DNA from: Nemertoderma westbladi | Lineage: Eukaryota; Animalia; Xenacoelomorpha | DNA: 64,000 nucleotides | NCBI GenBank assembly: GCA_032718475.1 | Contig: JAUCBJ010001307.1 | Location: 1-64,000 of the forward strand | Reading direction: 5' to 3' | In this document: positions 1 through 57,900 of the stretch, piece by piece | Numbering within the stretch: position 1 is the first letter of the stretch | Layout: every line of letters begins with the position of its first letter | Translations under genes and position numbers: made by a program | Notes under the pieces: generated by a model | Told to the model about the DNA's origin: nothing | What the model saw: the letters and a program-made list of their open reading frames with translations, nothing else | Database searches by the model: none

Positions 1-2118
1 GAAAGCTCTCGTCCTGAGCACGTAAACTATCGCAATCTCGAGGCTAATTTTACGCGTTTGCTTGCGTGAATGCGTATTTTGTGTTCGTTCGGGCGAAATG
101 TATCTAATTATTTCGGTTCTTCTATCGGTAATTAATTATTTAGAGGGGTAACATTTATCCCATCTGGTATAAAATTAACATGAGTAGATTCGCCGTGTCC
201 CATTCTCACAAAGTATTTATTTTATTCGAGTGTTTAATATAAATATGTATGATTATTTATTGATTAAAAATCAAATAGTGTATAAATATGTCATATTCGC
301 CAAGCACGATCGAATGGGCCTATTCTTAGTGCTGTAGTGAATAGGGAAGGATTTTTTTCTGTATCATAGCAACGTTAAGGTACTTATTGAAATCGCAGCT
401 AGCTGGCTGGGCACAGATAAGGAGCAAGCAGGCTGGAGTGTTGATTGGGGTGGGTTTGGGTTGTCTGTTGCGAATTGCTCAAGAGTAATTCTGCTTTCTC
501 AATCATTGGCTGCATGGAAGGAGAGGTTTATAACATTTTTGTTTTACTGTTATGAATATTAAAAGTAAAATAATTATTTCTGTAGGCCTATACTTACTGT
601 ATTATTATTTTATCTAATATTATACATCTAATCTCGATGAAATCTCGCTTACTATAGCTCGTTAGATAGGTCTCGCCCTAACTCGTTGCAACGTAATACT
701 CAGAGCCGTCTGAAGTTCCCCCATCTGCCGCTAGAGGGCGAATTGTCCGATAGTGAAAACCTGATCTCATTGGGTTGTTTTTAATGCTTTTGAGCTGAAA
801 CTTGGTAGCTATATACTGCAGCATAGGCTGTATATTTCCGGAGTCACTGAGTTGTCCACAGTTCCCCAGTCTACCGTTAGAGGGCTAAATGTCTGAGAGT
901 TAACATCTTCTCCAACTTTGTTATTTATAATCCATTTAGACTGAACTTGGTAGGCATCTACTACAGCATAGGCTATATCTTTACTGAGTCGCGCAGAGTT
1001 GTCTACATTACCCGCGTCTGCCGCTAGAGGGCGAAATGTATGAAAGTTAACATCTCCTCCAACTTTGTTATTTACAATCCTTTTAGACTGAAACTTGGTA
1101 GGCATCTACTATAGCATAGGCTATATCTTTGCGGAGTAGTAGAGTCGTCTACAGTTCCACAGTCAGCCGCTAGAGGGCGAATTGTCTGAAAGTTAACATC
1201 TTCTCCAACTTTGTTATTTACTAACGGTTTAGACTGAAACTTGGTAGGCATCTACTACAGCATAGGCTGTACCTTTACGGAGTTACAGAGTTGTATACAG
1301 TCCCCCCATCTGCCGCTAGAGGGCGACATATCTGATAGTGAACACCTCATCCCATTTGGTTCTTTTTAATCATTTTGAGCTGAAACTTGGTTGGTATCTA
1401 CTACATCATAGGCTGTATCTTTACGGGGTTGCAGAATCCTATTCACTTCCCCAGTCTACCGCTAGAGGGTGAAATGTCTGAAAGTTAACATCTTCTCCAA
1501 CTTTGTTATTTACTAACGGTTTAGACTGAAACTTGGTAGGCATCTACTACAGCATAGGCTGTACCTTTACGGAGTCACAGAGTTGTATACAGTCCCCCCA
1601 TCTGCCGCTAGAGGGCGACATATCTGATAGTGAACACCTCATCCCATTTGGTTCTTTTTAATCCTATTGAGCTGGAACTTGGCAGGAATCTACTACAGCA
1701 TATTCTGTATCTTTACGGAGTCCCAGAGTCGTCCACAGTTCTTCAGTCTACCGCTAGAGGGTGAAATGTCTGAATGTGAACATCTACATCAATTTTGTTA
1801 TTTACAATCTGTTTAAGCTGAAACTTGAAAGGCAGGCATTTTACTTCACCATAAACCCCATCTTTACCAAACTGCAGCGCCGTCTGCATTTCACCAGTCC
1901 GCAGGTAGAGGGTGGATCTGAAAGTGATCATTTTCTGGAAATTTTGTTATTTACAATCTGCCTAAAGTTGAAACTTGACAGTTATCTCTTATGGGGGTGG
2001 TGTTTTATTTAATGATGGTGTCTGTTCCGTATGCAGTTCTCAAATCTCCCACACATATTCATATATCATCTGCACGTGCACTAGAAAGCTGTGGCCCGAA
2101 GGGCCACAGGCTTTCTAG
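1..2118 (+). mobile_element. Non-autonomous Helitron (5' end outside window)
   Basis: 3' hairpin tgtggccc-gaa-gggccaca (2090-2108) followed by terminal CTAG (2115-2118); 1-82 is homologous to 2214-2295 of the next element. Confidence 0.75.
700..1980 (+). repeat. 146-bp tandem minisatellite (~9 units) inside Helitron
   Basis: ccgctagaggg-type core at 728, 874, 1021, 1167, 1313, 1459, 1605, 1751 (spacing 146-147), with a degenerate unit near 1900. Confidence 0.95.
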
Positions 2119-3330
2119 TCTATCTATATAAATATCCTCTGTATGTCTGTGAGTCTGTCCAAGCTATAAGCTCCGACACACATGCACCAATCTGAGCAAA
2201 TTATACATTGATCGAAAGCTCTCGTCCCGATCACGTAAACTATCGCTATCTCGAGGCTAATTTTACGCTTATGCTTGCGTGAATGCGTATTTTGTATTTG
2301 CTGCAACATTTTGTGTGACAAAATCTCAAAGTGATTCGAATATTCCTTTTGGAAGTACAGGCCTGGCAAAGCTGAGAGTTAGTTAGCAAGGCAGCTAGCT
2401 ACTTGCAGACCAATCATATCTTGAGGTGGCCTGCAGGCAGGCTGGGTTGGTTAAGTAGTAATCTCAATAAATAAATAGGACCCAGCAGGAGAGCGGAGTG
2501 GAACTACTGTGATTGGTTCTTTACTTACATTGATAAGAACAAGCAGTAAATCTTAGATTAGCTTTTTTCAGTTCACATGTTTGTAATCATAAACACAAAA
2601 TGATTGAATTATTCCTTTTTGCAATGTACCGGATGGGTGCTAGCGAGGTAGGCCTAGCAGGTCGTCAGTCCGTCATCCAACAAGTTGGAGCCGTGCGTGC
2701 ATCTATATGATGCAGACCATCCTGAGCCCGTGAACATGAATTGTAAAGGCTATCTCGAGGCTGATTTTTTACACATTTACTTGATACTTGCATGAATTGT
2801 CAGCAAGCAGGAAATTATAACAGCAGTTATTGCATCATCGTAACCACTCTGTTCTAACTGACACTTTGCAGAAGAAATTCTACCTGACCATAGCTGCGTG
2901 TTGGGAGGACGCCGACCAGTTTGCGGTTCTTCAGTCTGCCACTAGGAGGCGAAATGTCTGAGAGTAAAAATCTTATCCTATTTTGTTATTAATAATGTTT
3001 TTTAGCTGATACTTAGGTCCTTTACACAATATGTTTATAATGTTTTTTTGCTGATACCAAGCAGAGTATACTACACCGTAGGGTGTGTATTTGGGCTTGG
3101 GGAGACGATGACCAATCTACAGTTCCCCAGTCTGCCGCTATTAGGGGTTGAAATGTCTGAATGAGGAAACCTACAATTTTGTTGTTTATGAATGCTTTTT
3201 TGGTGATACTTGGCACTTGGCAGAGGACTACTACACCATAGTCTTCGTGTTTGGGGAGGACGCTAACAAGTGCAGAATTATGCAGTCTGCCACTAGGGGG
3301 CGAAATGTCTGAAATTAAAACCTTCTTTTT
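2119..3330 (+). mobile_element. Second related non-autonomous Helitron, 3' end not resolved
   Basis: Starts TCTATCTATATAAAT immediately after the preceding CTAG; shares 2214-2295 with 1-82; degenerate copies of the repeat unit at ~2920, 3117, 3272. Confidence 0.65.
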
Positions 3331-7651: not shown

Positions 7652-8057
7652 GATAGTATTGTAATTAATCCTCTAATGTGCAGTAATGCCCAAAAATAAT
7701 GCTGTAATACTAAAGCGACTAATGATTCATGATTTAGTTTTACAAAAATTATTTGCAATTACTTTGCTATTTTTAGTTCAAGAAAGCATTTTGTCTCATC
7801 CCTAGAGGTAAAATGCTTCAAATACTAAGACATTATAGAATATACCAGAAGTAATCATCGGAGGCATATGATTGTTATATTGTGACACAGAACCTCCAGG
7901 TAATTTTGTTTTCTTTTTGTTGCTCTGTTCTATTAGAAACTCCTTAACTGGGTATTATTTTTGCTCTTTCGGTGAGCATAGTTTCCATTTTATCTTTCAT
8001 AAATGTGACTCTTCTGCTTTTTGAAAGATTTGTGAATTCATCTCATTCTCAATGTTG

Positions 8058-8954
8058 ATGCAAGTGTGAACTTGGCCATTTTAGATTACTTATTTTACTA
8101 ATTGAAGCTCAAAATACCATTTGTATTGATAAAGTTGGTTGCGTTATAATATCGGTTATTTTTCAGTCGATTTACACATTACGGTTTGACGCCATCTAGT
8201 GCCATTATCCACATATCCAACTTGTAATAATACCCTATGGCTTACTCACTCTGTGCATGTCGTTTCTGCTGTGGAGTTACATCGCACATGCAGAACTTTA
8301 AATACCAGTCAGATCTTTGATGACTGGTGATTATTACATGTCTAAGTCTAATGTCTGAAACCTAAATTCGTTGTTAATAATTGAATTATATTTACTTATT
8401 ATTATATTTGATATTCTACTGGTAAACTCAATTTGTTATTGTTATTTGCTTAATATATCGCTGATATTATGGAATCAAGGAAGTTTTACACGCGCCACAA
8501 CCAGCTAGGTCATTATACTAAGCGATAGTGATTGCACTAGTCTTATGTGTACCGTCGTACCTCTGACTTAATAAATAATTAATATATGGCGATATTTCAG
8601 ACCATTATTGTAAGCAAAGCTCTTATTATTAACTATATCACGATTGAGAGTTGTCACAAATTGAATAATGTAGTGATATCAATATAATTTGACTGAAGAC
8701 TTGTTACAATACGTTTCCTCTAAAGGGAAACACAGTCACCAGACTTGAGTCCTTACATAATTAATTAGTCAATAATTATAATTAATTAGCCATTTGCTCG
8801 TTATACTGTGTTGCCACACCCTCTCGGTACTGTATATCAGTTAAATATAATAGACGATCAAATACCGTATTAGACTAAGCCAAACATAGAGTAAGTCAAT
8901 ACATCGTGGGAGAAAGGGGAAACAAAGAGATACACTTGAGCAGCCTTCGTTGAA
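8058..8954 (-). mobile_element. Penelope-like element 3' end/pseudo-LTR fragment
   Basis: Near-identical direct copy of 28993-29936, which is the 3' UTR and ORF end of the GIY-YIG element. Confidence 0.8.
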
Positions 8955-17125: not shown

Positions 17126-20100
17126 ATATACTGGAGAAGATTAAATCGCTAGAAAAGCAACAGTCAGACTCCCAATTAGAAGAACACCGTAGAGATCTTG
17201 ACCAAGGAAGTTAGTTGTTATACATCCTCCGATGAGTTCAATAAATCATCGGATAAATCTCGAACCTCTAGAAGTGGAAGACGCTTGGAACGGGCTGAAC
17301 GTCATTGTCTTCCAGAACTGCTGCCTCAATATCATGCTGATTCCGTTAAAAACACTAACAATCTTAGAACTAACTCTCACAGTGATTTCTTCAGACCAAT
17401 AAACACCCCCCTCACGGTTCCAAACATTGTTCCCCGTATATTAATAAATCCCGCTAAGCCGAATGTAACATCTGTGGCTATGGTAACCCAAACCAAAATT
17501 ACACCCATTGGTATTTCGACAACTACAGTAGAAAGTAATCAGGCAGATAGTTTACAGCCTAAAACTTCTACAGTATATAGGGATAGAATAGTTACGCCTA
17601 CAGTACGCCCAAAACAGGCGCGACCAATCCCAATATTGGCTGATAGAATGTCCAGCACTACCTACGCCCACCCATTGAACACTCATACCCTGGGCCCAAG
17701 CCTGTCCCCCACCACAGACTCCTGTGAAGGACATTATGCCGCCTCCAGGCCGGTCGTGTCCGGATAAGTGGAGTCGGTGAGGGATAGCGGGCCCACCAGG
17801 TTAATGAACAAAGTCACCCGGGCGAATGAGGATTCCCTTTATAGGGAGAGATTGAATGTATCCTCATCAAATCTGCAAGCCATGCAGGAGGCAGTAAATA
17901 ATAAAATGAAACAATTAAATAATATCGATTTTGAATTAAATCGATTAAATAAACAACGAGAGATAGTGAGTGGACAAAATCAGCGAGCATTAGAAAAGCA
18001 GCAAGAGCAGCAGCAACAGCAGCAGCAACAACTACAGAAACATTTAAAGCAACTACACAATGAAGCCACCAACAACGAGCAATCACGGATTATACAACGC
18101 CGACATTTGCAGGAGTTGCAGGGTGAATCTGTGCAAGCCACCAAGGTTCTGGAGGAGCTGCACCAAAAAACCTCGAACAACGCTGGTGTCATCCGAAACG
18201 TGGACTCTCCTGAGTATCAGATCTTAAACAAAAGAGAGCCTCTAATATAAACGGCATTGAAGCTGAAAATATATCACACGCCCTCCTATCTCACCCAATG
18301 TTAGAAACCCTGAGTACAACACGGGTACACAAAATGACACAAAATAATAATAACTATTATAGACCCCCACAGACTAATGTAGGTCCCTGTGATAACTCTA
18401 CATTTAATACTATGTTTAATACTACTATAGCTCAGGATAGTTTAACCAGCCAATTAGCACGTACTGAAGCGCGTCAGGCAGTTAAGGTAGGTGAAATTAT
18501 TAAGTTTGATGGAAATGAGTTAAATGGCTTCCATTTAGAGAATATGTAAAAGACAGTATATTTAGTTCACCATTACCTAATAGTGAGAAATTGCGTTTTT
18601 TAATAGACTGTTTGGAAAGCTATCCGAAGAAATTAGCACAAAGATATATCGGGCATCCCCAGGGATTAGAAGAGCTATGGAAGCTGTTACATGATAGATA
18701 CGGAGATGAAGCTTCAATAGCCCAATATCTATATCAGAAGTTGGTCAATTGTAAACATGTAATCACAACAAAAATGATTGAGTTTGTTGACGAGATTAAG
18801 GAAATTGAGATTAGTAGAGTAGATTGGTTGGATAAACATGAATAATATGAATGAGATTATTACCCCGGTCATAGTTGGCATGATTTCCACAGCCCTACCT
18901 AAGGGTAGTGTATCCACACGATGGGACCGCAACGTACTAAACGCTAAACTTTGTGGTAAACCAGCTCTAAGCATGAAGGATTTCCTGGATTACCTCAATT
19001 ATGAATCCTCACTGCTGATGATTACCCAGTGTCGCGAGCGCAACGCTGGGTAGCATCCCGGAACTCGATAAAACCTCTTCAACTAAACGTCGGGAATGAG
19101 TTTACCAAACTGATCTATCTATGTGTGAAGATGAATCAGAAGAAAGTGAAAGTTCCTATCACATCTCAGACAACCCGAAACACATAACACAACAGCGAAA
19201 GGACCCGAGATCTCCATCACCTAGACACAAGGGTCAGTCTGATAGACCTTCTCGCGACCGAGCTCCCATTCAAACTGTGAAAACACAACAAATACATACA
19301 TAATATAGTAACCTATAATTCTGGAAGCTAGGCACATAGTAAAAACCATGTGGGACCAGAATCTTACATGGGATGAACCCCTTTCAGGTGGCTTGTTAAC
19401 AAACTGGTCCAGGTGGGAAAATGCCTTACCCGACGTTGAAAACTTTCGGGTACCTCGAGCATACTTTCGAAATGCTCTGCCATCACATACATATCAGTTG
19501 CATGTGTTTGGTGAGAGCAAGTGACAACGGTATTGGTATCATAGCTTATTATAGAGCTACAACACCCCAAGACACTCGGGTGTCCTTTGTTGCGTCCAAA
19601 TCCCTCATTAAGGGCAAGAACTTAACTGTCCCAAGGGCGGAATTAAAAGCCGCCCTATTCGCAACAATTGTCACCAAAAATATTCTTGAATTCTTGAATA
19701 TTCATGAAACTGATTTTAAAATCACTAGGACGGTTTTATGGACAGACGCAGCCATAGTGCTGGAGTATTTAACTAATACTGTTTGTGGATTCAGTGTGTA
19801 TATCACAAACAGAGTGTCCATGATCCTCAATCGCACCAAACTAGAACAATGGAGGTACATCCCTGGACCCCAAAATCCCACAGACATACCTTCTTGAGGT
19901 GCGACCCCCAATGACTTAATAAATTCGAAGTGTTGGTTAAATGGACCCGATTTCCTTTCCCAACCAGAGGATCAATGGCCTGCCCATATCACCCCAGAGG
20001 AAATGAGATAGGTTAAGGGTTTGGAAATCGTAAAACATAAAAATAGACCATCCAAGTCCAAGCTATTCAGACCCCTTGATATAGCAACCAACAATTACAT

Positions 20101-21720
20101 AAACAAATTAGACAGCCAAAATTCAGATCCTCTCCTGAGTATTCAACCCAGGGATGAAGCTGTCCCAGACAACCCTAAGATATTCCCCAATCAATCCGAC
20201 TTACCTAATGTTGATGTAGGTCAATCCCCACTAATAGTCCGAGCCATGAACCGCTATAGCTCGTGGGACAAAATATGTATGTAAGGCTATAACTATTCTG
20301 AAACAACTATTCCACTATAGGTATAATACTAATAATGTACTTGTAGTAGGCTTATCACCACATGAAGTTGATAAATCCAACCTACAATTATTGAGACTTT
20401 TGCAGAAGCTTGAGAAACCTGAGAAATATAATCAGCTTATTTTGACTCACCCTTTGACTCCATTGTCGGATAAATTCTCGAGTATCATGATAAATGGGTT
20501 AATTCGAGTTGGAGGCCGTCTCACCAACGCTCCTATCTCCAGGGATACCATGTTTCCGATATTGATATTCGATCACGAGATTCAAACCAAGTTGATACAG
20601 GACGTTCATTACTGACTCTATCACACCGGGAGAGAACACATATTGAGCGAGATCAGGACGTGTTATACTTAGTCCACCCTTAACCCTCTTAACATCCACC
20701 CTCTTAGCCAAATACTGCGGAACTGTATACCTTGTAAGAGGATCTATAGTAAGCCGATGACGCAATTGGAAGCAGCACTCCCGATGGAAAGAGTTGATTG
20801 CTACCAACCCCTGTTTACACACACAGGCGTGGATCTCTTTGGACCTTTTGAAGTCAAGCATGCCCGCTCGATAGTAAAACAGTGGTGTGTGATCTTTGTC
20901 TGCATGACCTTTTGAGCAGTCTATCTCGATATGGTCAACGACATGTCGATGAAAAGTTTCATCCTTTGCCTCCGGAGACAGATCGGCAGGTTCGGAACCA
21001 GCCGCACTATGAGGTCCGACCAGGGGACTAATTTCGTGGGCACCAACAACAAAATTTCCAAATTCATCACGGATTGGAACAATCACCAGCTCAAAGAACA
21101 CCGTAAAGTGTCGGCATCTACATGGACATTTAATGCCGCCGATGCGCCCTGGTGAGGCGGAAGTTGGGAATGGTTAATAAAAAGTACAAAGGTCATGTTC
21201 CATCACATCATCCCATATTAAGCTTATTTGACTGATGAATTACTCACAACTCTTCTGGAGGAGATATCAAGTTGCTTGAACAATAGACCCCTGCTCCCCA
21301 TCTCGTCAAGTCCACAAGCGATGGAACTCCTCACACCGTCCCATTTCTTACTAAGAAAACCAGTGACCATGCTGCCCAAATCCGATCCACAGGATGGTGA
21401 TGAACTATTGAGACATACTTGGCAAATGACGCAACTACTATCTTTGCAATTCGCTACACACTTCGAAAGATACTATTTACCCTCAGTCCAACTCAGGACC
21501 AAATGGTTTTCCAAAAAGGAAAATATATCCGTTGGCGACATAGTACTCCTAGTGGATCAAGACCAACCTAGAAAAAACTAGGAAATGGGCCATATAACAG
21601 AAATTCATACGTGAAACGATGACTTAGTATGCTCAGTCAAACTGGCTATTTGGAGAGCTAAACCCAAACCCAAGGAACACTATTTCAATTGACAAATCGG
21701 ATGCCGTTGTTTACTAGAAC
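17126..21720 (+). mobile_element. Decayed BEL/Pao LTR retrotransposon internal region (gag, RNase H, integrase; PR/RT missing)
   Basis: gag KFDG...EKLRFL...LHDRYG; Pao RNase H TVPRAEL, WTDAAIVL, NRV, WRYIPGPQNPTD; integrase RVGGRL, TGVDLFGPF, SDQGTNFVG, LNNRPL, LTPSHFL; many stops. Confidence 0.92.
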
Positions 21721-22613
21721 TGGCAACGGAACATTCCGGTAACTATGGGCAACAAAGGGTTAGGCCAAGCAAGCAGTCTGACCTACAAACTAGAGTAACA
21801 TCTTGTATTGAGGTTATGATTGAGTATGTAATTATTTATTAGCCATTTAAAAACGTAGGTATTAGTATTAGACTATGGTGTACAACGTAGCAATAAAACC
21901 TACTTATGTCAATTATACATTATATATTCTGGCCGCATATACAGCCAAATATTACAACCAAATTTAATATTGCTATAAATGTCCAAATAACTATTACAGT
22001 AGATACTAGTGTGAAATAAGTGTGAAAGTTGAGCATTCTAATCTCTATTTACCAACATGTCACGGAATAATTGGTTAAATAACAACGAAACAATGTATTT
22101 CCCTGGAAACTTACATATAGATGGATAGGTATATGGATATTCATGGATAGAACTTACATAACTGTGAATGCAACCGCTGAGTACAGCTTGCATTGCAGAA
22201 GCAAAACTGTTATCATGGATATACAAAAGCGTCTTTGAACCGTATTTGATATTAAATTACATTAAAGCATACAAATAACCACCAAATTAAGCTAAATAGT
22301 ATGGAAAACCGACAAATAGTATGAGTTTTAAGGTGTATGCAATTGTCCAACCCTTCACAGATGCGAGGATTATAGCAGACCATTATGGCTCCGGGCCAGT
22401 CCCCCGTCTCCCTGGCTTGATGAGAGTTTAACATATAGCCACGATATTTCGGTACCGCTGATAGTTGCAAACTCGATTCTTGCCACTAGGGATCGACCAG
22501 GGACTGCGTCGCGGCGTGTCTCGGCACCTTTTGGGGAGGTGACACCCACCTACCCCCTATATATATCTGTTTAATCTCGCATATGTCTCGATACATGAAG
22601 ACACCCCCTTCCG

Positions 22614-25551
22614 AAGACCGAGAAGAAAGAAGAACCAACCTGTCGAAATGTAAAAAGACACTAAAGATTGCTACAATGAACACACGCACGCTGAAAGCAC
22701 ATACCAAACAGGGTGACATGGTCGCTCTGGCAATGGAATATAACATCGCATCATCTGCATCCAAGAACATCGGATTTGTCATGAAGACACTGCCATGAAG
22801 TACAATGACATTTGAAATGGATGGACGTTAGGAACAAGCTCAGCAGTAAGAAACTCAGCCAATGCATCAATTGGTGGAGTAGGAATTCTGCTAAGCCCAT
22901 TTGCACTTAAGACCCTAAACAACATCGAATCTATAAATTCCAGGGTTATGATCGCAACATTTGATGGGAATCCCAATGCAACAGTTATATGTTGCTACAG
23001 TCTAACCAATGCCTCAGAGCTAGAACAAGCAGTCAAGTTTTATGAAGAACTGACTGGACTTATAAAGGACATTCCGAAACACAATGTTAAAGTCATTGCT
23101 GGTGACCTGAATGCCCAAATTGGCCCAGAAGACATCAAGGGTTACACCTATAACACCAGTTCTAACAGAAATGGGTACTTACTTTTAGACCTAATGGAAG
23201 AATGTGAATTGATACCAACAAACAACACATTCGAAAAGAGTAAGGGAAAGCTATTGACCTTTCAATACCCTAATGGAACCAAAGCACAACTGGATTACAT
23301 CTTCATAAACAAAAAGTGGAGATACAGCATGATCAACTGCGAGGCATACAGCTCGTTCAACCTAATTGGTTCGGACCACAGAACTGTGACTGCAGAGATC
23401 AGACTCAGTTTGAGAGCCAGCAAACCCAGGACAAGCAAGCAAATCAAATATGACTGGGAAAAACTCAGAACTGACAATGCTGTAAAGGATGCTTATACAG
23501 TAGAAGTTCAAAACCGCTTTGAAGCACTTCAGTCAATGGATGAAGACCAATCCACCAATTCAATATACCAGAATATAATAACAGCCCACAAGGAATCAGC
23601 TAAGAGGCATATCCCCCAGAAACCCAAACGAAAACAATATGTGCCATGGCAAAACTCTGAGGTTACTTGTAAGAGAGAAGATCTTAAGATAGCCTACAAA
23701 GTTAAAACCGAACAACCAACAACCGAAAACATTAACAAGGTTGAGAAAGCTAAGGACGATCTTAAATTGGCCTACAACATCAGCCAGGAAAAGTACATAC
23801 AGGATAAAACTGAAGCAATTACAACTGCTCACATACAGCAACAATCAAGACTTACATGGCAAACTGTAAATGAGGTATCTGGTCGGAAAAGTTGTGCAAA
23901 GGGGCGCCTCAAAGACGATAGTCCCGAAGAACATGTTGGGAAGTGGAAAAATCACTTCAGCAACTTGCTTGGGCAGCCACCAAACATCGAGGTCAACCCT
24001 ACAAGGAAAATATATGACAAGACACTACCTATAGAAACAGGGGACTTCACAACTGTCGAACTCCAAAGAAGCATTAAAAGCATGTCCAATAATAAAGCGA
24101 GTGGATTAGATGAAATCCCAGCGGAGGTATGGAAAACCGGAGTGCTAAACAGACCATTATTGAATGTTTGCAACCGGATGTTAAAAGGGGAAAAGCCACC
24201 ACCAATTTGGACTAAAGGTCAACTAAAGCCTCTCCCCAAGAAAGGAGACCTTGGCATACCAACAAACTATCGTGGGATCTGTCTGCTTGTGGTAGCTGCC
24301 AAAATATACAATAAAATGATTCTATATAGGATTAGGCCTCACATAGAGAAACTACTGCGTAAGAGCCAAAACGGATTTCGACCAAGTAGATCAACAATAG
24401 CTCAGATACTTGCACTACGGAGACTGATTGAAGGAATTAAGTCAAAGAATCTCCCCGCTGTCATGACTTTTGTGGATTTCAAGAAGGCATTCGACTCCAT
24501 CCATAGAGGTAAAATGCTTGAAATCCTAAGAGCTTATGGAATACCAGAAGTAATTGTTGCTGGCATTGGATTGTTATATTGTGACACAGAAGCGCAGGTA
24601 CTCTCACCAGATGGTGAAACTGAGTTTTTCTCAATCCTGGCTGGCGTACTGCAAGGTGACACATTAGCACCATTACTATTTGTAATTGTGCTGGATTACG
24701 CAATGAGGACGGCCACAAAGGGTGAAGACCTGGGATTCACACTTCAAGAACGCAGAAGTAGTAGATATCCAGCAACTACAGTCACAGACACCGACTTTGC
24801 GGATGACATCGCCCTGCTCTCTAATACCCTAGCAGATGCACAGCTTCTACTAAATAAAGTGGAGAGGGCTGCTAAGGAGGTTGGATTGCATATAAATGCT
24901 ACAAAGACCGAATTCATGACCTTTAATGTTGATGGAAACTTGACAACCATTGATAATAATCAACTAAGGAAGGTCGATGACTTCCAGTACCTTGGATCAA
25001 GGATAGAGAGTAGCAAAAAGGACATAGAAGTTAAGAAAGCAAAGGCTTGGGTAGCTCTATCAAAAATAGATACCATCTGGAAATCAGATCTCTCCAGGCA
25101 CCTGAAGACTAAGTTCTTTCGTGCCACAGTGGAAAGTGTATTTTTATATGGGGGTGAGACCTGGACACTGACTAAATCACTTGAACAACGATTTGATGGT
25201 TGCTACACAAGACTACTAAGGGCAGCCCTAAATATCAGTTGGAGACAACACATAACAAACACCGAGCTTTATGGTACAATACCACCTGTATCAAGCACCC
25301 TCCGTGAACGCAGATTAAGATTCAGTGGGCACTGCTGGCGAAGTAAAGACGAGGTCATACCAGATCTACTTTTCTGGCAACCAACTCATGGAAAGCGTAG
25401 TCGTGGACGACCAGCCATAACATATATAGATCAACTTGAAAGGGATACTGAACTTAGGAGAAACGAAATTGCGACAACTATGGAGAATCGGGAAGCCTGG
25501 AAGGATCTCATTTCCACTGTCTGAGTTCGCTTGACCTAGTAGTAGTAGTAG
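22614..25551 (+). mobile_element. RTE-clade LINE (family B), slightly 5'-truncated
   Basis: Single EN-RT ORF, (TAG)n tail at ~25537-25551, ~31-bp TSD at 22582-22613 and 25552-25582. Confidence 0.95.
22948..25524 (+). CDS. RTE AP-endonuclease/reverse transcriptase (858-aa open part; N-terminus disrupted by a frameshift ~22750 and a stop ~22813)
   Basis: GDLNA, LDYI, SDH; NYRGI, QNGFR, DFKKAFDS, GVLQGDTLAP, FADD, YLGS, RRLRFSGH, RGRP. Confidence 0.93.
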   Translation: MIATFDGNPNATVICCYSLTNASELEQAVKFYEELTGLIKDIPKHNVKVIAGDLNAQIGPEDIKGYTYNTSSNRNGYLLLDLMEECELIPTNNTFEKSKGKLLTFQYPNGTKAQLDYIFINKKWRYSMINCEAYSSFNLIGSDHRTVTAEIRLSLRASKPRTSKQIKYDWEKLRTDNAVKDAYTVEVQNRFEALQSMDEDQSTNSIYQNIITAHKESAKRHIPQKPKRKQYVPWQNSEVTCKREDLKIAYKVKTEQPTTENINKVEKAKDDLKLAYNISQEKYIQDKTEAITTAHIQQQSRLTWQTVNEVSGRKSCAKGRLKDDSPEEHVGKWKNHFSNLLGQPPNIEVNPTRKIYDKTLPIETGDFTTVELQRSIKSMSNNKASGLDEIPAEVWKTGVLNRPLLNVCNRMLKGEKPPPIWTKGQLKPLPKKGDLGIPTNYRGICLLVVAAKIYNKMILYRIRPHIEKLLRKSQNGFRPSRSTIAQILALRRLIEGIKSKNLPAVMTFVDFKKAFDSIHRGKMLEILRAYGIPEVIVAGIGLLYCDTEAQVLSPDGETEFFSILAGVLQGDTLAPLLFVIVLDYAMRTATKGEDLGFTLQERRSSRYPATTVTDTDFADDIALLSNTLADAQLLLNKVERAAKEVGLHINATKTEFMTFNVDGNLTTIDNNQLRKVDDFQYLGSRIESSKKDIEVKKAKAWVALSKIDTIWKSDLSRHLKTKFFRATVESVFLYGGETWTLTKSLEQRFDGCYTRLLRAALNISWRQHITNTELYGTIPPVSSTLRERRLRFSGHCWRSKDEVIPDLLFWQPTHGKRSRGRPAITYIDQLERDTELRRNEIATTMENREAWKDLISTV

Positions 25552-25552
25552 T

Positions 25553-28500
25553 ATGTCTCGATACATGAAGACACCCCCTCCGTTAAACGACGTTCTCGGG
25601 AACAGCATGCGGAGATGATGGATACGATGATGGCTGATTTCACCGGCGAATCCACTGAGCTCGCTCAGAGCATGGCACCGCGTATGAATCCTTCAGAGAG
25701 TTATATCGAACCGCCGATGAACCCTGAACAGCGCAACATCGAACAACAATACCGTAAGTTTATTCTCAAATATACCAAGTGCGATGGAAGTTATAACAGC
25801 TTCCTTACCACTGGTCAACCCATGGACTTGAGGGACATCGATGACTAGCATGTCGATTGGGAAATGAAGATGTTCAAACTACACGTCAAATGGCAACGTA
25901 GTAAAGAGACCCGAACACAACATGATTATCAAATTCGTGTTGACATCGCGGCTGATGACGCCGAGAACCCTTCTCATCTCTCCCGCTTCGAGGACTATGT
26001 CACCTTTCTTCGTGAAATGTATTTAAAAGTCGCAAGTCAACAGGATCTACAAACTCTGTACCCCAAGGGCGTTCATCCTAACCCGGCAAAGGAGATCAAA
26101 CGACTCTATCATACCATGATGTATCTCACCGAGGGTCGTCCGCTCCTGGTCCTTCCTGATGCCTTCCACGACATGGAGGAGTATAGTAAGTCAGGTATAA
26201 AGTCTCCACCCCCAAATAAAACTGATTCCCGACTCTGGTACTTATGCGGTCAATGTCCTCATCCAAACCAACAGGTCTCCACTACACCAGCGAATCACCC
26301 CCGTAGGCAATGCTCTCACCACAGCTTCGTCAAGTATACGTATGGAGGGTTTGAAGATAATCGCTTCAAAGTCATTGAGAGATGGTTGCGCAACTTACAG
26401 AGGGTGAGTAAACCCATGATTCGCGTCCCTGAGTTTTCCCCGTGCCCGATGCTCCCTATGGTGAAACCCATGACGTTATCTCCGACAGACCCCCGCTTCT
26501 CCGAATCCATATACCTATACATCAGAGACCTCGTTATGGGGGAACAGATAGCTTCCGTTACCAAGAGGAAGAGCCAACTCCTCTATGGTTGGTATCGGTC
26601 GTGAAACCTTACTACAGCGCGAAGAATCTATGTGGACTTCTCCTCTCACTTTCTCCACAATCTCCACGGTTAATCGTAACTACTTGGTTACAGAGTTCCT
26701 TAACGCCCTTCGAAACACCATCGGCGTAGATGACCCCATCAAACTCTCTGGTAAACTCGATGTTGTTTGTCGGATGAGATTACCGGAATTCGAATCTAAA
26801 TGATCCACCTATGGGCCCAGGAACGTGGTTTCTTCCACATTGTTTACGAAAGGATAGGTAATGGAATGCATAGAGCTGAACGTACTGGCATCGGGCACAT
26901 TTCATTCCATGAACTCGGATGGGATTTCAAGGAAGGTTGGTGGTATAACCGTTATTTACACCTATATGATGATAATTATTCCCATTATTATTTCAATGGC
27001 CCTTTGACCGCTCCCGGTGCTGTTTATTCCAATATTAGTGTCCCTCTTCGGCCTTCTCTCACCATTTACATGATATACGAGAACTCTGCCGTATCAGGTT
27101 GGTTGGCCAATACTTGTAGTAGTACTTTGTTTATCCCACCCATTACTTCTCAGCACTCAGCTTGCCAAGGTTAATCGTGAAGGGAAATTCCAAAGTTTCA
27201 AATGTTTTCGAAGGTTCTTATTCCCCTTCTTCGGTATTGATGGTCAGTTCCGTGACCCAACTCTAAAGGGACAGGTAAATAAGTATTTGTCTGCCTTTGA
27301 AGACTTGAACAGAAAGGGTTTGGCTATATTCTATTCATGGATGTGTGTGTCCAAAACTTGCACTCCACTGTTCTGGAGCGTCCCATCCTCAAGTCTGGCT
27401 ATTCAGTTTCCATTGTACAAACATCAGATAAACAGCTGGCTTCCTATTTAAACGTCTCTGTGGTCTACAATGTCTTAGAATCCAAATCCATCCATCCCAC
27501 TTCCGATTTAGATGACGATGGTGAGTTTGTTATACCGTGGCACCTTGGACCGCAGCCCTTAACAAGATTTACCTTTCATTCTGCCGTATCGTCGGAAGCG
27601 CTGAATCCAATGCGGATCCCATGCTCATAAAACTCCACCTACTGGTGAGATTTGTCAGACATACTCTCAATGCTCTGATCTACCGCTTCATTGTCCATAT
27701 TGTAGACTATTCAATGATCATACTTTCTTTAATTGCCCACAATTTTCGGAACAATGTGATAAGGTTTATTAAAAGGACACTACCCAACCTCCTACCCTTT
27801 CGACTTGACACAAAGGGATGATGAAACATCCTTTCTGAAGTATATCAAATTATGGGCACATTCCGCGGATTTACACCAAATCACGCACATTCATTATGAA
27901 TCTTCCCGCTCCTACTGCGGAGTCTTTGCCTTCAACCCCTACGCCTTTGCGATTGAAGCGCAATGCTCTAACCTTCCCGACTACCAGTTATTACTGATGG
28001 TTTCGGAGCTCACCCATGTTCAATATGTGCGCACATTCCTTCGTCGCATGAACCCCGGTGATTTAACCACCTATATAACCTTATTGACTTTATTCGTAAG
28101 GACCCAAACCTCGGTTACAAGTTCGTCTCCGCTAATCCAGAGTTACTACAAACTTCGGACCGCATTACGTACCTCCGTCATACTTCACATCTTGCGGAAG
28201 AGACAGTCAAACCTTTAAAGTATGTTGCGGGCTGAGGAGGTGTCATGACTTTATCACAGACCCTTAAAGGACTGGTTACCATCGCCATCCTCAAGAAAGT
28301 AGTGCAATCCACATTACCCGCTTCCGCTAAATCTTCACCGGCTAAAATACTCCGAAAGGGTGTGAAGTTATTACATCATTCCGTTCCCGTGACAACCACG
28401 ATTATCGAACCTTAACCGGGAACATCCACTGGTGGACCGACCGTATGGACGCACGCCCCACTGACTCTTTGAAAATTCATCCTTCCGCCGCTGAGGGGCT

Positions 28501-28597
28501 ACAAGTACAAAATTCCCCGCCTTCGTCGCCAAGTAATGGTTCTCCACCAACGAAACGCCGCAAGCGACCCCCTAAAAAGAAAAAGACCCAGAAATAA
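25553..28597 (+). pseudogene. Decayed ~1000-codon orphan gene of unknown function; original ATG duplicated at 22583 by the RTE TSD
   Basis: Chain of + ORFs 25615-28218 linked by stops and frameshifts; ends in SPPTKRRKRPPKKKKTQK with the stop overlapping AATAAA (28593-28598); no recognised domain. Confidence 0.65.
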
Positions 28598-28992
28598 ACA
28601 TTGATTTTTCTGGTTATTTTTATTACCACTACTTTACTTTATATGACTCATATCTCTACTTTATATTATATGTAAAATAAGTAAGTGGTGTCTCCCCAAT
28701 AATTCATTTAGCTTAAATTTGTTCACGAGCTGAAATATTTTATATATGCATTATATATACTCTTTAGCACTACAGTTTGCTTATTTAGAAGTAATAGATA
28801 TCCAATAATTCACTTGATTTAATTTTGTTCACAAGTTGAGATATTTTATATGCTGGATACGTATGTTCTATGTAATTTGAATTTGATGTTGTTAATTGAA
28901 TTACTTGCATACTAGACATCCTTCTGTGTATAATTTGAACTCATCCCTTCATTTTTACCACCGTATTAGCTAAATGAATGGAAGCCGTGTTA

Positions 28993-30707
28993 ATGCAAGT
29001 GTGAACTTGGCCATTTTAGATTACTTATTGTACTAATTGAAGCTCAAAACACCATTTTTATTGATAAAGTTGGTTGCGTTATAATATCGGTTATTTTTCA
29101 GTCGATTTACACATTACTAAAGGTTTGACGCCATCTTGTGCCATTATCCACATATCCAACTTGTAATAATACCCCATTGGCTGTGTTGCTCTATTATGGT
29201 TAATCTGTTATATAAGCACGATTGGTTGAGTGCCTTACTCACTCTGAGCATGTCGTTTCTGCTGTTGAGTTACATCGCACATGCAGAACTTTAATTACTG
29301 GTCAGATCTTTGATGACTGGTGATTATTATATGTCTAAGTCTAATTTCTGAAACCTATATTCGTTGTTAATAATTGAATTATATTTACTTATTATTATAT
29401 TTGATATTCTACTGGTAAACTCAATTTGTTATGGTTATTTGCTTAATATATCGCCGATATTACGGAATAAAGAAAGTTTTACACGCGCCACAACCAGGTA
29501 GGTCGCTATGACTAAGCGTTAGTGAAAATCTGGACAATTGCACTAGTCTTATGTGTGCCATCGTACCTCTGACTTAATAAATAATTAATATATGGCGATA
29601 TTTCAGACCATTATTGTAAGCAAAGCTCTTATTATTAAATATATCACGATTGAGAGTTGTCACAAATTGAATACTGTAGCGATATCAATATAATTAGACC
29701 AAAGACTTGTTACAATACGTTTCCTCTAAAGGGAAACACCCTTACAATTCCTTACATAATTAATTTGTCAGCCATTTGTTCGTTATACTGTGTTGCCACA
29801 CCCTTTCGGTACTGTATATCAGTTAAATATAATAGACGATCAAATGCCATATTAGACTAAGCCAAACATAGAGCAAGTCAATACATCCTGGGAGAAAGGG
29901 GAAACAAAGAGATACACTTGAGCGGCCTTCGTTGAACTACTTCAAAGTTGAGCAAACGTTGAACTAACTCAAAACTTGGTACATGACCCGTATCTACATG
30001 GTGAGCTGCTAGATCCGATGCTTTGTACCATTCGTATCTTACATCACTGTCATGTTTCGTTATACGGATATCCATACTGTATTTAGTTTCACCTATATAT
30101 GTTAGCCCACATTCGCATGGGATCCTATATAATACGCCCCTATGATCAGTCACCGGTTATGTCCTTTTAGCAGAAAAGATGCCAACTTATGTCCCGGTAC
30201 AAAGTAAGTTTCCACCCCATAGAGAGCACAGAGTTTTTCCAAACTTTCAGTAAGGCACACTTCATATGGTAAACCAAGTCTTATGTTAATTTTGTCCTTG
30301 GGCGGTACAGGTTTAGGTTGGTCGAATCGTCTATTGATACGTATCTTTGTACTATAAATAATTCTATTCGGATAACCATTATTAGCTAATGTGTTAGCCA
30401 GTTTACTTTACAGTGCGATTTCGTGCTTCTACAGTAGAACAAATACGAGTGGATCTAAAAAATAATGCACTGCATACGCTTTGTTTCACCCATGGGTGGT
30501 GGTTGGATGAAAAGTTTAAGTACCTATTGGAGTGGGTTGATTTTTTTATAAACGCCAGTCGAGAATTTACCCTCAACTAAACCAATTAGTACGTCCAAAA
30601 AGGTAACTGTCCATTAACATTTTGGTAATCAACTGTAAATTTAATATCCTGATGTAACGAATTTAAATTATCTAATATGGCTTCAACCTGGATAGCGTCT
30701 ACACAGC
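28993..30707 (-). mobile_element. Penelope-like element 3' part (RT thumb, GIY-YIG endonuclease, 3' UTR)
   Basis: IKFTVD, RYLNFSSNHHP, NGYP, LPY and GVLYRIPCECGLTYIGET...RITKH motifs; degenerate. Confidence 0.9.
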
Positions 30708-35536: not shown

Positions 35537-37147
35537 TTAATAGTCGCTATTTGCATAGCGTTGGGGAGGTCTGATGGTTCTCCCAGATCGGGTGTGGGTA
35601 GGGGTACCATTAGGGGGCGCCACATGTGGGGTAGGTGCCGGTGGCTGTGCCTGAGCCAGTGCTGGGCGGCTGGCGACCTCGCTCCAGGTAGGTTTGGGGT
35701 CTGATGGTGGGTTGGGCTGTGGTGCTGTTGGTGGCTGTCTCTCGGTTGATGGTGTGGGGAGGCCGCTAGGTGGCGCTGTAAATTGCCGCGTGTGTAGGAA
35801 AACGCGGTTGCGCCTCAGGACACGGCCGCTTTCCTGTCGCACAAGGTAGTCATGGTTGGGCATGGCCTCGACTATGGTTCCGTGTCCGGTCCATCGCCTG
35901 TTGCGGGGGTCCTGTTTAAGGACGGGGTGTCCAGTTGGCAGCGGCTTCGTGTGGCAGTTGTAGTTCGCTAACAGTTTTTCACGTGTGGTTTCCGCAATTG
36001 CGTCGAGTTGGTGGAATGTCTTGCGCCACTTCTCATCTAAGGCGGTGAAGTAGACGGGGAGGGACTCATGGATATTGTGGCCGTAAAGTAGTTCGGCGGG
36101 TGAGCATCCGCCATAACGTGGAGTGTTTTGGAACGCCAGTATCCCGCGTGCTATCCCGACCGAATCGTGTATGGCACCATGGATTATCTTCTTCACGGCC
36201 TTCACGGCGGCCTCCGCTCGACCGTTGGTGCGGGGGAGGTGGAGGCTGGATGGTTCCAGGGTGACACCCCACTGCCGGAGAAACTTTTTCACCTCCTCGG
36301 AAATGAGTTGTGTTCCACCATCTGGGTGGAAGATGGTAGGCACCGCTGTGGCAAGGAACAGCTGGCGTAGGCAATTCACAATGGGGGTGGATGTTGTGTT
36401 CGCGTTCAATCGGAATAACGTCGGCCATCCGGTGAACTCGTCGGTGACCACGAAATAGTTGGTCTGGTCGACTTGGAGGAGGTCGGCATGGACTCATTGG
36501 AATGGGCGGGTTGCATCCGGGTTACGTTGGAGTGGTTCTGCCGCGTGGGACGGGAGGGTTGTCTGACATGATTGGCACCGCTCAACCATCTGTTTGACGT
36601 CGTGGGCGATAGAGGGCCACCAAACAGACCGGCTGGCTCGGTCCCGGGTCTTGTTGAGACCCTGGTGGAGGGTCTCCGGGTGCATCTCGACTGGGATGTA
36701 GAGCTGTGGTCCACGGATGATGATGCCGTCGAGAACCATCAGTTCAGAGCGGTGCGCGAAATAAGGCCGGATGAGGTCGTCCTCCACATTGTGTTTGGAG
36801 GTCGGCCAGCCCTCCCTTATTATGGATAACAGGGCCCGGTATACAGGGTCACGTTGGCCGACGTCCCTCACCTGTTGGAGACGGGCGTCTCGGGACTCAA
36901 CTGACGGGATCTCGCCGCACGCGGTGTTAACGATAAACTCACGGTCGGCGTTGTCTTCGGCGGAGAGCAGGAGGTCGTCGGGCTGGGGGGTGTGGCGTGG
37001 TGCGCGGGAGAAGGCGTCTGCGATCAGGTGTTTAGACCCCTTCTGGTGTCTCGCTGTTAAGTTGTAGCGGGACAGCAGGGTTTTGAGTTTGAGGAGTCGG
37101 TCGTTACTCACCTGGTCCAGACGGCGGTCATTGAGGATAGGGATCAA
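35537..37147 (-). pseudogene. RNase H C-terminus plus integrase (stop ~36494)
   Basis: IADAFSRAP, HQG...WWP...CQSCQ, VTDEFTGWP, DGGTQ, NGRAEAAVK, TRSGR.IRPP.RY. Confidence 0.88.
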
Positions 37148-37701
37148 TGAATGGGCTGCATTCCGTGACTATCTCGAAGTGACACAACCCATCGAGAAAG
37201 TAACGACTCCCACAGCGCCGGTGGCGGCCCAGTAACGGGAGGTTGTGGCTGGGTGGTGGGAGTTGGAGGTGGCGGCTGTGCCTGCAGGGTGTGGCTGGTG
37301 GTTGGTGCGCATTGTGGCAGGGCTGCACTGCGAGTGGGTGGCTGGCTGCCCCGGAGAATCGGGCTCTGGAGGATGCCTAAAAGGAAACAAGTTCTGCTCG
37401 ATAGCAGTGGCTGGTGTAGGCCATCCAGGACCCAGACTTCCATGGTGCAAGCTGTATGCAGCGAGTGGCACTGGATGGTCGCCTGGAATACTCCTTTGAA
37501 TAACCACCCTGAACGACTGCCACTGGCTAATCGGGGTGGTTGGATCACCGAGTTGGTTAGGCGGAGGTTAGCGGTGGTCCCACCGAATTCCAAGAAGATC
37601 CGGAAAGGGATGGCGGTTATGTTGGCGCCGGAGTCCAGGAGGAACTGGAGCTCCTTGAAACCAAACTTTGGGTTCCTGGTGACTTGGAGGCCCACGGTCA
37701 C
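37144..37701 (-). pseudogene. Retroviral-type aspartic protease, fused to the RT deletion junction
   Basis: FLLDSGANITAI, PLLS..TC..LGIL. Confidence 0.8.
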
Positions 37702-37722
37702 CGTTTCCAGAGCCTCCAGTTG

Positions 37723-38766
37723 CTATAAGGCAGAAATGATGGGGGCGCTCTCCAGTTCAGTGCCTGAAAGGATCGACCACACCTCGGCAGTGCCAGAATA
37801 GGCCGCGTCCTCCTCTGTGTGAGGGTGGGAGGGTGGTGGTACGTCTGCAGCGTGGGACTGGGGCTCGCGTTGGCGGGGGCACATCCTGTTGTAATGCCCC
37901 AATTTGTTGCAGTGGCGGTAGCGGGCGTTGGTGCCGGGGCAGGATTCACCGGGTCCGTGGGGTGGGTAGCCACAGTTTGAGCAACGCGAGGCCGATGTGG
38001 GGTTCTGGTTGCGTCGGTTTCCTGGTGGGCGGTTGCGTGGTGGTACATTGGCCCACGAGGCTGCGGGTGTCACTGGGGTTGGTGCAGCAGGGGCAGATAT
38101 CATTGCGGGGTCCTTGCGGGCGGTCCAAGCGGACTGGGCGAGGTGTAGGGCGGCGGTGATGGAGCTGCCACTGGGGAGGCGGAGCAGTTGCTCTGTCACC
38201 TTCTTATTGCTGAAACCCACAATGAACTGATCGAGGAGCCGTTCATTGAAGTGGTCATCAGCGGAAGGGAGTGCCTTGAAGCCGCACTTGGCTGCGATTT
38301 CTCGCAGATTAACGAGGAACGCTTCCGGGGTCTCCTCGGTCAGTCGGGCGCGCCGGGTCAGTTCTTGGCGGTGCACCCGCTTGTTGGTTCCTCCTTTAAT
38401 GTGGGTGTCTAGGGAGGCGATCACAGTATCGGCGTTTTGGTTGTCTGCTGCTGACAAACCGAGACCCTTCACCATCATAGCGTTCGTGCTGCACGAGAAT
38501 GCCATGGTTAGGGCGGCCCGCCGTAGGCGATTCGTTACGCGCAGTAGTTCTGCTGATACCGTGGGGTCCGGTGGATTGTTGGGGTCGGCAGTCCGCAGGT
38601 TTTCCATGCCGGACGTGACCAGGAACGCATCCCACTCATCTCTCCACAGGTCCCACGTCGACTGTTCGGAGTCGATGTCGAAGGCGGGGGGAACACAGCG
38701 GAGGATAAATGAGTGGGGGTCTCGGTGGTCATTAGCCATTCGGTAGAGTGTTAGAAATGGATCCAA
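37723..38766 (-). CDS. Gag with tandem CCHC zinc knuckles
   Basis: CSNCGYPPHGPGESC...HCNKLGHYNRMC; LREIAAKCGF...LLDQFIVG. Confidence 0.88.
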   Translation of the reverse strand: MDPFLTLYRMANDHRDPHSFILRCVPPAFDIDSEQSTWDLWRDEWDAFLVTSGMENLRTADPNNPPDPTVSAELLRVTNRLRRAALTMAFSCSTNAMMVKGLGLSAADNQNADTVIASLDTHIKGGTNKRVHRQELTRRARLTEETPEAFLVNLREIAAKCGFKALPSADDHFNERLLDQFIVGFSNKKVTEQLLRLPSGSSITAALHLAQSAWTARKDPAMISAPAAPTPVTPAASWANVPPRNRPPGNRRNQNPTSASRCSNCGYPPHGPGESCPGTNARYRHCNKLGHYNRMCPRQREPQSHAADVPPPSHPHTEEDAAYSGTAEVWSILSGTELESAPIISAL

Positions 38767-38910
38767 TATCAGAATATAGGCTAATATAAATAATATTGAA
38801 TAGTACTATTTACCAGCTTGACGTGTCAGTCAGTGCAGCAGTCAGATACAGCAGATAGTACATTGTAGTGGGTAGGGAAGACCTACCAGTACAGAGGTAG
38901 TACTGTAGTG

Positions 38911-56200: not shown

Positions 56201-57900
56201 TCATTCAGGACGAAATACAAAGCTACCACTGGTCGCAAATGTATTGCACCTTACATCCATTCGTGTTATACTTCTACAAAGAAGGTGCTGACAATCATTT
56301 AGGCTCTACTTCACTTTGCTACCTATCAGAAGATTCTGATCACGATACAAGTTTTGTTTACAAGATGCAGGAGCATCTTTGTTCATATATAAGGGAAGAA
56401 TTTCCCCTTGTTAGCCACATACATTATTATTCTGATGGCTGTGGAGGCCAATACAAAAATTGCAAAAATTTTCTCAACCTAACTTTACATAAACATGACT
56501 TTAAGATAGCTGCATCTTGGAACTTTTTTGCAACCAGCCATGGCAAGTCTGCATGTGATGGAATTGGAGGTACTGTAAAGCGACTTGCTGCTTCGGAAAG
56601 TCTTCGTAGACCACTTTCCAATCAGATTCTTACAGTTGCTGCTCTTTTCAAATTTTGCACAGATTCAATTACTGGTATAAAGTTTTACACCATTTCGAAA
56701 GAAGAATTGAAGACTACACGAGAAAAATTGAAAGAGCGATATGAGTTGGCCACAACTGTACCAGGTACACTCAGTTTTCACCAGTTTGTTCCATTAGAGG
56801 ATCAGCATCTAGCAATAGCTTATAAAAGATGCAGTGAAGATGAAAGTTTTACAAATTCCTATAATTTTTCTAAAAAATATTCATATAATATGAATTATCA
56901 AGCGAATGATTACGTGGCTGGTAAATATGACGATTTGTGGTGGGTGGGTCTTGTTAAAAATGTGAACGATGTTGAATTGGAAGCATCGGTAACATTCATG
57001 CACCCAAGCGGACCTTCAAAGAGCTTCTTTTGGCCTCGTAGAATTGATGAGTGCCTTATTCCATTGAATGACATGATCTGCAGGATAGATGTTCCTTCGG
57101 CATCTTCAATATCAGGGCGATCCTACTCTCTGTCAAAACAAGATGAAACTAATGTCATAGAAAGCTTTCAAAAGATGTTAAGAAAATAGGAAAGAAAATT
57201 ACATGGACGGTGAATTTTAGTCTTCATGACATGTCACGAATATACAAATTTTAAAACTTCTCAATAGTAGAGCAGTACTTAGCTAGAAGTGATGTAAACA
57301 TGCAAAACTGTTATGAAGTAGACCTATCAGCCAAATGTCACTTCAGCTTTTTTAGCTTAGAGCATGAGCTTTCGCGACATGTCGCGATGTCGCGAATATT
57401 CAAATTGATGTAGCACAAGTTTGGAAAACGGGGCGGGGATGAATCCTTTTGCTATCTATTACACATTGATGGTATTTTTAAACTAACTTGGTCCCAAAGA
57501 AAATAAAGTTAACCAACATCATGAATTTTTTGACTGAAAATACCCTATAGCGAATGAAATTTATCTTGCTGAAAACCAAACAAGGCATTGGAATTTACTA
57601 TTTTTAACCCAAAATTCGGGATCTACATGGTCGAAAACCCCCCATAAACATTTTGTTGGGTAGTTTTTCACAAATGTTATCTAAAATTAAAAAAAAAGTA
57701 CTATGTCGAGGAGCCGCAAATCGGTGCGCATGCCGCATAGAGAGCCAATTTTCAAATTGCAATAACTCATGAACCACTGAACTTCATGAGCTCAAATTTT
57801 GCATGGTACCATCGTTTACCAATCCCTTCGATCCCTCAAAAAATTGAATCAATCTGAGGACATGGGTTCACCACCTGGTTGATTATAAATGGAATGACTC
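53274..57900 (+). mobile_element. Sola2 DNA transposon, full length
   Basis: 5'-GAG...CTC-3' termini, TIRs ~53274-53981 and 57261-57900, 4-bp TSD taag at 53270-53273 and 57901-57904. Confidence 0.88.
54568..57189 (+). pseudogene. Sola2 transposase (~870 aa) with one in-frame stop at 55384-55386
   Basis: ORFs 54568 and 55390 are in the same frame; DFSENY, SDGCGGQYKN and HGKSACDGIGGTVKR DDD motifs; CVCTYH Zn motif. Confidence 0.88.

What the first reader, a model, noticed from the sequence alone, without database searches (positions are those of the whole stretch)
25553..28600. Orphan ~1000-codon gene with virus-like compact architecture: candidate endogenous viral element or unknown TE gene
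Seen: removing the RTE and using the left TSD copy restores MSRYMKTPPSVKRRSREQHAEMMDTMM... in frame with ORFs 25615 and 25864 (one TAG between them). Overlapping + ORFs continue with no obvious introns to a Ser/Pro-rich tail and a strong NLS (PPTKRRKRPPKKKK) whose stop codon overlaps AATAAA. It is more GC- and CpG-rich than the host genes and has a CGQC...CSHH cluster. I recognise no RT, transposase, helicase or capsid motif. Inference: a fossil of a nuclear DNA-virus gene, or an accessory gene of an undescribed mobile element.
Basis: partly seen in the sequence, partly recalled or inferred. Interest (0 to 1): 0.75.

Follow-up and report, generated by a model that had tools for sequence, protein, structure and literature searches.

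The report
Dead orphan gene of mobile DNA
This is a broken, roughly 1,000-codon gene with several related copies in an animal genome and no detectable relative in the databases searched; it is likely the fossil of an unclassified jumping DNA element, possibly of the rolling-circle kind, and nothing found ties it to a virus.

Summary
Observation confirmed. An RTE-like LINE (22613-25551, 28-nt target duplication) splits the start of a decayed + strand gene of about 1,015 codons. The gene ends in a basic NLS-like tail whose stop overlaps AATAAA. It takes 10 breaks to cross, against 24 in shuffles and 29 on the other strand.

Contigs of the same organism hold several relatives, 81-90% alike. They lack its two early stops, and three listed ones are gap-free over 248-421 nt. 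So it is one dead copy of a once-coding repeat family.

No homologue was found in Pfam, PHROGs, PDB, 1.84 billion protein representatives (one piece), three word-based protein searches, or viral and metagenome contigs. Its composition matches neighbouring transposons, so it is no sign of a virus. The only lead is weak: a Helitron-Rep motif-II-like stretch lacking both histidines, not confirmed by HMMER or HHalign. No helicase motif.

Best reading: likely the gene of an unclassified DNA transposon (0.55); viral fossil 0.2. The scan's index showed no earlier look-alike.

The parts
22357..22586 (+). GC-rich block predicted to fold into a long stem-loop; likely the element's left end or leader
   Evidence: DNA fold -39.5 kcal/mol, z -3.48, 0 of 200 shuffles as low; GC rises at about 22350; 14-28 contigs per run carry another letter at 22431 and 22461 in X1-X3
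22558..22564 (+). TATA-like run 25 nt before the first ATG (22583); promoter role untested, and the spacing leaves almost no leader
   Evidence: spacing judged from own knowledge
22582..22612 (+). left copy of the target-site duplication, holding the first codons
22613..25551 (+). later insertion: 5'-truncated RTE-like LINE with (TAG)n tail (the RTE clade label is recalled, not tested by a tree)
   Evidence: RVT_1 E 6e-35; loose ends at 22613
25552..25582 (+). right copy of the target-site duplication
25553..28597 (+). decayed orphan gene of about 1,015 codons with at least 10 breaks
   Evidence: relatives
26245..26324 (+). first Cys/His cluster, possibly zinc-binding
   Evidence: no family hit
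   Evidence: no Pfam hit; best PDB hit E 0.07
27931..28005 (+). stretch resembling Helitron Rep motif II but without its two histidines; weak lead. A separate H-I-H lies at 27886
   Evidence: rank 1 of 127,852 window positions but only 5 bits; Atlas 0.82-0.83; not confirmed
28544..28585 (+). basic NLS-like tail after a Ser/Pro-rich stretch
   Evidence: import function predicted only
28593..28598 (+). AATAAA overlapping the stop codon
28696..28851 (+). two 50-nt units 106 nt apart (84% alike) in the AT-rich 3' part; right end of the element not fixed, at most about 28987
   Evidence: another repeat begins at 28988

Best explanation
This is a dead copy of a repeated element whose single gene likely encoded the nuclear, zinc-binding mobility protein of an unclassified DNA transposon. 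Shown: a once-coding + strand frame, several diverged relatives in the same organism, later decay, and a LINE insertion into its first codons. Inferred: the gene was a compact unit with its own promoter and polyadenylation site, the protein entered the nucleus through the basic tail, and it recognised the structured left end to copy or move the element. If a chemistry must be named, the most likely is single-strand nicking by a remote HUH (rolling-circle) domain with host helicase help, as proposed for helicase-free HUH transposons (PMC10288648, section 9). I put that detail at only about 0.2.
For: Coding signal on + only. Relatives: contigs of 587 nt (70 other letters), 1028 nt (103), 683 nt (67) and 636 nt (66) lie on the body. 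The stops at 25846-48 and 26602-04 are not carried by the other copies (5 contigs and 1 contig in X1). Three listed contigs have 38, 46 and 56 substitutions and no gap, whereas a non-coding repeat pair in this window has one indel per 7.5 substitutions. Of 20 listed variant sites in the first open stretch, 11 are third positions, 6 first, 3 second (P 0.04). One lineage lacks 135 nt, a multiple of three. More distinct contigs cover 22431-22461 (14-28) than the gene body (1-13), as expected if short derivatives share the end (a hint only). It sits among Pao, LINE and other transposon remains and has their composition. No transmembrane-like stretch in 10 of 11 pieces.
Against: No transposase motif is proven. 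Helitron profiles built from 39 HLE1-type and 17 HLE2-type sequences do not list any body piece among their top 8 of 1,522 window pieces. HHalign ranks the candidate piece 9 of 140 (probability 1.2%) and 122 of 140. Only 1 of 5 motif blocks put a body site first. No significant terminal repeats: inverted 63 of 200 shuffles as good, direct 8 of 200 and then 30 of 100 under other settings. No target duplication for the element itself was found. The three gap-free contigs were picked from the listed ones; six other listed diverged contigs do have gaps. Variant lists are the tool's best-supported subsets (40 rows each; 1,723 and 480 not shown). Summed contig depth is not a copy number.
Confidence: 0.55

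Rival explanations
1. A gene of a nuclear DNA virus entered the germ line and was later multiplied; it would have been expressed from its own compact promoter and polyadenylation site.
For: Compact layout with TATA-like run, stop over AATAAA and NLS-like tail; structured left block; orphan status. That such layouts are common in DNA viruses is own knowledge.
Against: No match in viral contigs, PHROGs, phage records or viral folds (poor model). No viral gene recognised nearby. Composition shared with transposons. These libraries are dominated by prokaryotic viruses, so the negatives are weak.
Confidence: 0.2
2. A fast-evolving, lineage-specific host gene family; this is a pseudogene or retrocopy of it.
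For: Host genes in this window also have long single ORFs; past coding constraint fits; a poorly sampled animal lineage gives orphans.
Against: GC 0.46 against 0.28-0.31 for host genes; no poly(A) tract after AATAAA; other copies carry frame-breaking indels too (table 4); no conserved cellular domain.
Confidence: 0.13
3. A passenger or accessory gene of a larger element, such as the Pao LTR element just upstream, a Helitron or a KDZ transposon, moved by that element's own enzyme.
For: A decayed Pao pol lies upstream on the same strand and ends near 21600-21780 (Peptidase_A17 E 1.4e-9; DUF5641 E 6.3e-8); 22054-22307 is also covered by several contigs. Helitron-like elements carry extra ORFs (PMC11417382, section 22 passages).
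Against: No LTR pair brackets Pao plus gene. The 0.9-kb repeat at 28988 and 8053 is the tail of another element, not a recognisable LTR. No env-like transmembrane stretch in the likely frames. No match to ORFs in 158 fetched loci, Helitron loci among them (best E 0.03).
Confidence: 0.12

Closest known systems
Helitron-like elements HLE1 and HLE2 (PMC11417382, 12 passages read; PMC8788227, 12 passages read)
   Same: Weak resemblance of 27931-28005 to Rep motif II; long N-terminal part with Cys/His clusters; a predicted stem-loop at one end; no target duplication found.
   Different: Both motif-II histidines are absent; motifs I and III are not found; no helicase or Walker A; profiles are negative; terminal signals not recognised.
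Replitrons (PMC10288648; abstract, outline and section 9 part 1 read)
   Same: Single-gene HUH transposons without helicase, with hairpins and short direct repeats at the ends; here one H-I-H, no helicase, a marginal direct repeat.
   Different: Described from plants, algae and protists; no Y-x-x-K found in the likely frames downstream of the H-I-H; direct repeat not significant; no Replitron sequence was compared.
Endogenous elements of nuclear DNA viruses (general; recalled)
   Same: Compact orphan gene, NLS-like tail, stop overlapping AATAAA.
   Different: No viral homologue, no neighbouring viral gene, dispersed multi-copy pattern.

Membership tests
Helitron (HLE1/HLE2) | Rep domain with HUH motif II and catalytic Tyr motif III | tested here: not met
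   Motif-II-like stretch lacks both His; motif III and I blocks do not rank; HMMER and HHalign negative
Helitron (HLE1/HLE2) | PIF1-type helicase fused to Rep | tested here: not met
   No Walker A in any + frame; full-length profiles negative; stop and AATAAA follow about 200 codons after the motif-like stretch
Helitron (HLE1/HLE2) | TC...hairpin-CTRR ends at AT, or short inverted repeats plus stem-loop at TT | tested here: inconclusive
   11-nt inverted match 22287-22297 / 28705-28715 not above shuffles; ends not mapped
Replitron | Y1 Rep (HUH plus YxxK) with adjacent oligomerisation domain | tested here: inconclusive
   One H-I-H at 27886, expected by chance in a protein this long; no fitting YxxK; no Replitron profile on hand
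Replitron | short direct terminal repeats | tested here: inconclusive
   22278-22306 / 28957-28983: 8 of 200 and 30 of 100 shuffles as good
Endogenous viral element | homology to a viral protein | tested here: not met
   libraries poor in invertebrate viruses
Endogenous viral element | viral hallmark genes beside this or other copies | not testable with these tools
   none recognised in the neighbours scanned; no genome held for other copies
Tyrosine-recombinase elements (Crypton, DIRS) | R-H-R-H-Y recombinase domain | tested here: not met
   No Pfam hit in C-terminal pieces; motif-like words lie in different frames
LTR retrotransposon env-like third ORF | lies inside paired LTRs; signal and transmembrane segments | tested here: not met
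Processed pseudogene | homology to a cellular gene, poly(A) tail, target duplication | tested here: not met
   the parent could be an unsampled orphan

The most novel reading that the evidence does not exclude
It is the fossil of an undescribed class of single-gene, helicase-free rolling-circle-type transposon of animals, with a roughly 1,000-residue protein too remote from Helitron Rep for profiles to detect and a structured left end shared with more numerous short derivatives.
Probability: 0.18. Interest if true: 0.75.

Novelty: new variant of a known kind. Interest (0 to 1): 0.4.

Why it matters
Most unclassified repeats in little-studied animal genomes are non-coding debris. This one kept the trace of a large protein with no detectable relative, so an intact copy could reveal a new transposase or a new invertebrate DNA virus gene. 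As it stands it is a dead copy of unknown class, which limits its value.

Tried and rejected
Protein searches: phmmer of 25849-26601 against 1.84 billion representatives, 0 hits at E 0.001 (the only piece so searched). Word-based searches of three other pieces among longer proteins only: 0 of 252, 0 of 67 and 0 of 32 candidates at E 1 (weak by the tool's own note). Pfam: no body piece under E 0.09. PHROGs: best E 0.075. PDB by sequence: best E 7.6 and 0.07.

Contigs: viral 0 of 5, 9, 6 and 4 pattern matches confirmed; metagenomes 0 of 51 and 0 of 217; phages none.

Folds: single-sequence models had mean pLDDT 34 and 41. The second gave no match at E 0.001 in PDB or viral folds; the first was not searched; the wide structural search was busy twice. 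Atlas for 26800-27171: unnamed bacterial clusters at 0.82, chance level. The N-terminal third was not searched in the Atlas.

RNA: no Rfam match in 21700-29200, no tRNA in the window, no RNA holder listed.

Ideas dropped: tyrosine recombinase (motif-like words in different frames); Nanos-type finger for 27605-27769 (recalled likeness, no Pfam or PDB support); the 8053/28988 repeat as an LTR pair; terminal repeats.

Literature: five searches; from titles and abstract starts none describes such an element. They were word searches of an open library only, and no supplements were read.

Full report
OBSERVATION. The window is repeat-rich animal DNA: a tetraspanin gene and a rhodopsin-family receptor gene lie among LINE, LTR and DNA-transposon remains. 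A LINE with a reverse transcriptase ORF (22816-25524, E 6e-35) lies between two copies of a 28-nt sequence, 22582-22609 and 25552-25579. The copies differ by one base in length just beyond that. From 25553 to 28597 the + strand can be crossed with 10 stops or frame changes. The - strand needs 29, and shuffles need 24.1 +/- 2.8 (0 of 300 as low). The last third is weaker (11 of 300), and a frame model trained on the first kilobase does not settle the path there. The Cys/His cluster at 26245, the basic tail and AATAAA over the stop are as described. A second Cys/His cluster lies at 27605-27769.

COMPOSITION. The body has GC 0.46 and CpG o/e 0.94. Three host genes have GC 0.28-0.31 and CpG 0.51-0.88; four neighbouring transposons have GC 0.37-0.59 and CpG 0.47-0.86. 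The gene differs from host genes, but its GC is within the transposons' range, so this says 'mobile', not 'viral'.

COPIES. No genome is held, so I used public contigs. Two of six listed runs hold the stretch (shares 0.86 and 0.56, two studies); the first may be the window's own source. Run X2 carries this locus with 6 differences in 857 nt and 0 in 424 nt, so it is germline DNA seen in a second sample. Other contigs are diverged relatives: 587 nt with 70 other letters, 1028 nt with 103, 683 nt with 67, 636 nt with 66. The stops at 25846-48 and 26602-04 are not carried by the other copies at those places. Three listed contigs have 38, 46 and 56 substitutions over 245-421 nt and no gap, while a non-coding repeat pair in this window shows 45 substitutions and 6 indels. 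These three were picked after the fact; six other listed diverged contigs have gaps, and single contigs show 1- and 7-base losses, so other copies have decayed too. Of the 20 listed variant sites in the first open stretch, 11 are third positions (P 0.04); the lists are 40-row subsets. One lineage lacks 25972-26106, 135 nt. Together this shows a small family that was once under coding constraint. No intact copy was seen, and contigs cannot show one.

ENDS. The block 22357-22586 folds better than all 200 shuffles (z -3.48) and joins the first codons once the LINE is set aside. At 22431 and 22461, 14-28 contigs per run carry another letter, against 1-13 in the body, a hint of more numerous short derivatives. 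The right limit is at most 28987, where a repeat shared with 8053-8954 begins. That repeat follows a - strand ORF with a GIY-YIG-like word (label recalled, no Pfam hit), so I read it as a Penelope-like tail, not an LTR. Neither inverted nor direct terminal repeats are clearly above chance.

WHAT THE PROTEIN IS. Sequence searches were blank: for proteins and families; for contigs. Only one piece had a full profile-engine search. Folds were too poor to use. One lead appeared: the Atlas gave Helitron_like_N clusters as the top three hits for 27763-28215 (0.82-0.83; family on 40-64% of members; recognition 1623, below the tool's mark of 2300). To test it I fetched 157 loci by a motif scan, picked 56 Helitron-type sequences by similarity to one RepHel (that seed matches the solved Helraiser transposase at E 7.6e-52) and built profiles. 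A 25-column block around motif II puts 27931 first of 127,852 window positions, but at 5.0 bits against 3.4 for the next, and fourth with the HLE2-type block. Four other blocks do not favour the body. Both histidines of the motif are absent. HMMER profiles list no body piece in their top 8 of 1,522; HHalign ranks the piece 9 and 122 of 140. The Atlas and block results rest on the same residues and count once. There is no Walker A. So it is not filed as a Helitron: per PMC11417382 (introduction passages) autonomous elements encode Rep and helicase together.

HOW IT LIKELY WORKED. Shown: compact layout, past coding constraint, several copies, decay, later LINE insertion. Inferred: one nuclear, zinc-binding protein that acted on the element's own structured end and spread it to several sites (0.55). 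The chemistry is open; a helicase-free HUH reaction, as discussed for Replitrons (PMC10288648, abstract and section 9 part 1), is the best single guess at about 0.2. Rivals: viral fossil 0.2, host gene family 0.13, passenger of a larger element 0.12.

NOVELTY. Five word searches of the open library (listings and abstract starts seen) showed no description of this element; supplements were not read, and repeat libraries such as Repbase could not be searched. The scan's index had no look-alike by sequence or place. Earlier notes on this genome mention a Helitron and a KDZ element with an extra gene (unchecked). Verdict: a real but dead, unclassified mobile-element gene; interest 0.4.

Noticed in passing
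window 25553-28597, runs X1, X2, X3: Contigs of this very copy have about half the depth of other single contigs in X1 (21-25 against 44) and X2 (8-12 against 19-27), and X3 shows only other letters at nearly all listed body sites. This haplotype may be present on one chromosome only and missing in some individuals; contigs cannot prove absence.
   Followed up: partly
window 17180-21780 +: Decayed Pao/BEL LTR element (Peptidase_A17 E 1.4e-9, DUF5641 E 6.3e-8); no LTR pair found.
   Followed up: partly
window 28988-30400 - and 8053-8954: Element with a GIY-YIG-like word in ORF 29878-30156 (label recalled; no Pfam hit); its 0.9-kb tail recurs at 8053-8954, 86% alike.
   Followed up: partly
window 53376-57808: DNA transposon-like element with long inverted arms (53376-53817 and 57366-57808, 90-92%) around ORFs 54565-57189 split by one stop; no Pfam hit under E 0.008.
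   Followed up: no
window 700-1876: Tandem array of 146-nt units, with further units near 2900-3320.
   Followed up: no
window 35537-38805 -: GC-rich (0.59) gag-protease-integrase-like ORFs with no reverse transcriptase ORF seen among ORFs of 150 aa or more; read by eye as a deleted Gypsy-like element.
   Followed up: no
window 26096-26135: A short stretch draws very deep contigs, probably a chance likeness to an abundant repeat.
   Followed up: no
L022:1593-6620; L046, L061, L064, L065, L085, L090, L092 and others: Long Helitron-type ORFs lie in a giant-virus bin and in many bacterial genome bins, likely eukaryotic DNA binned with them.
   Followed up: no
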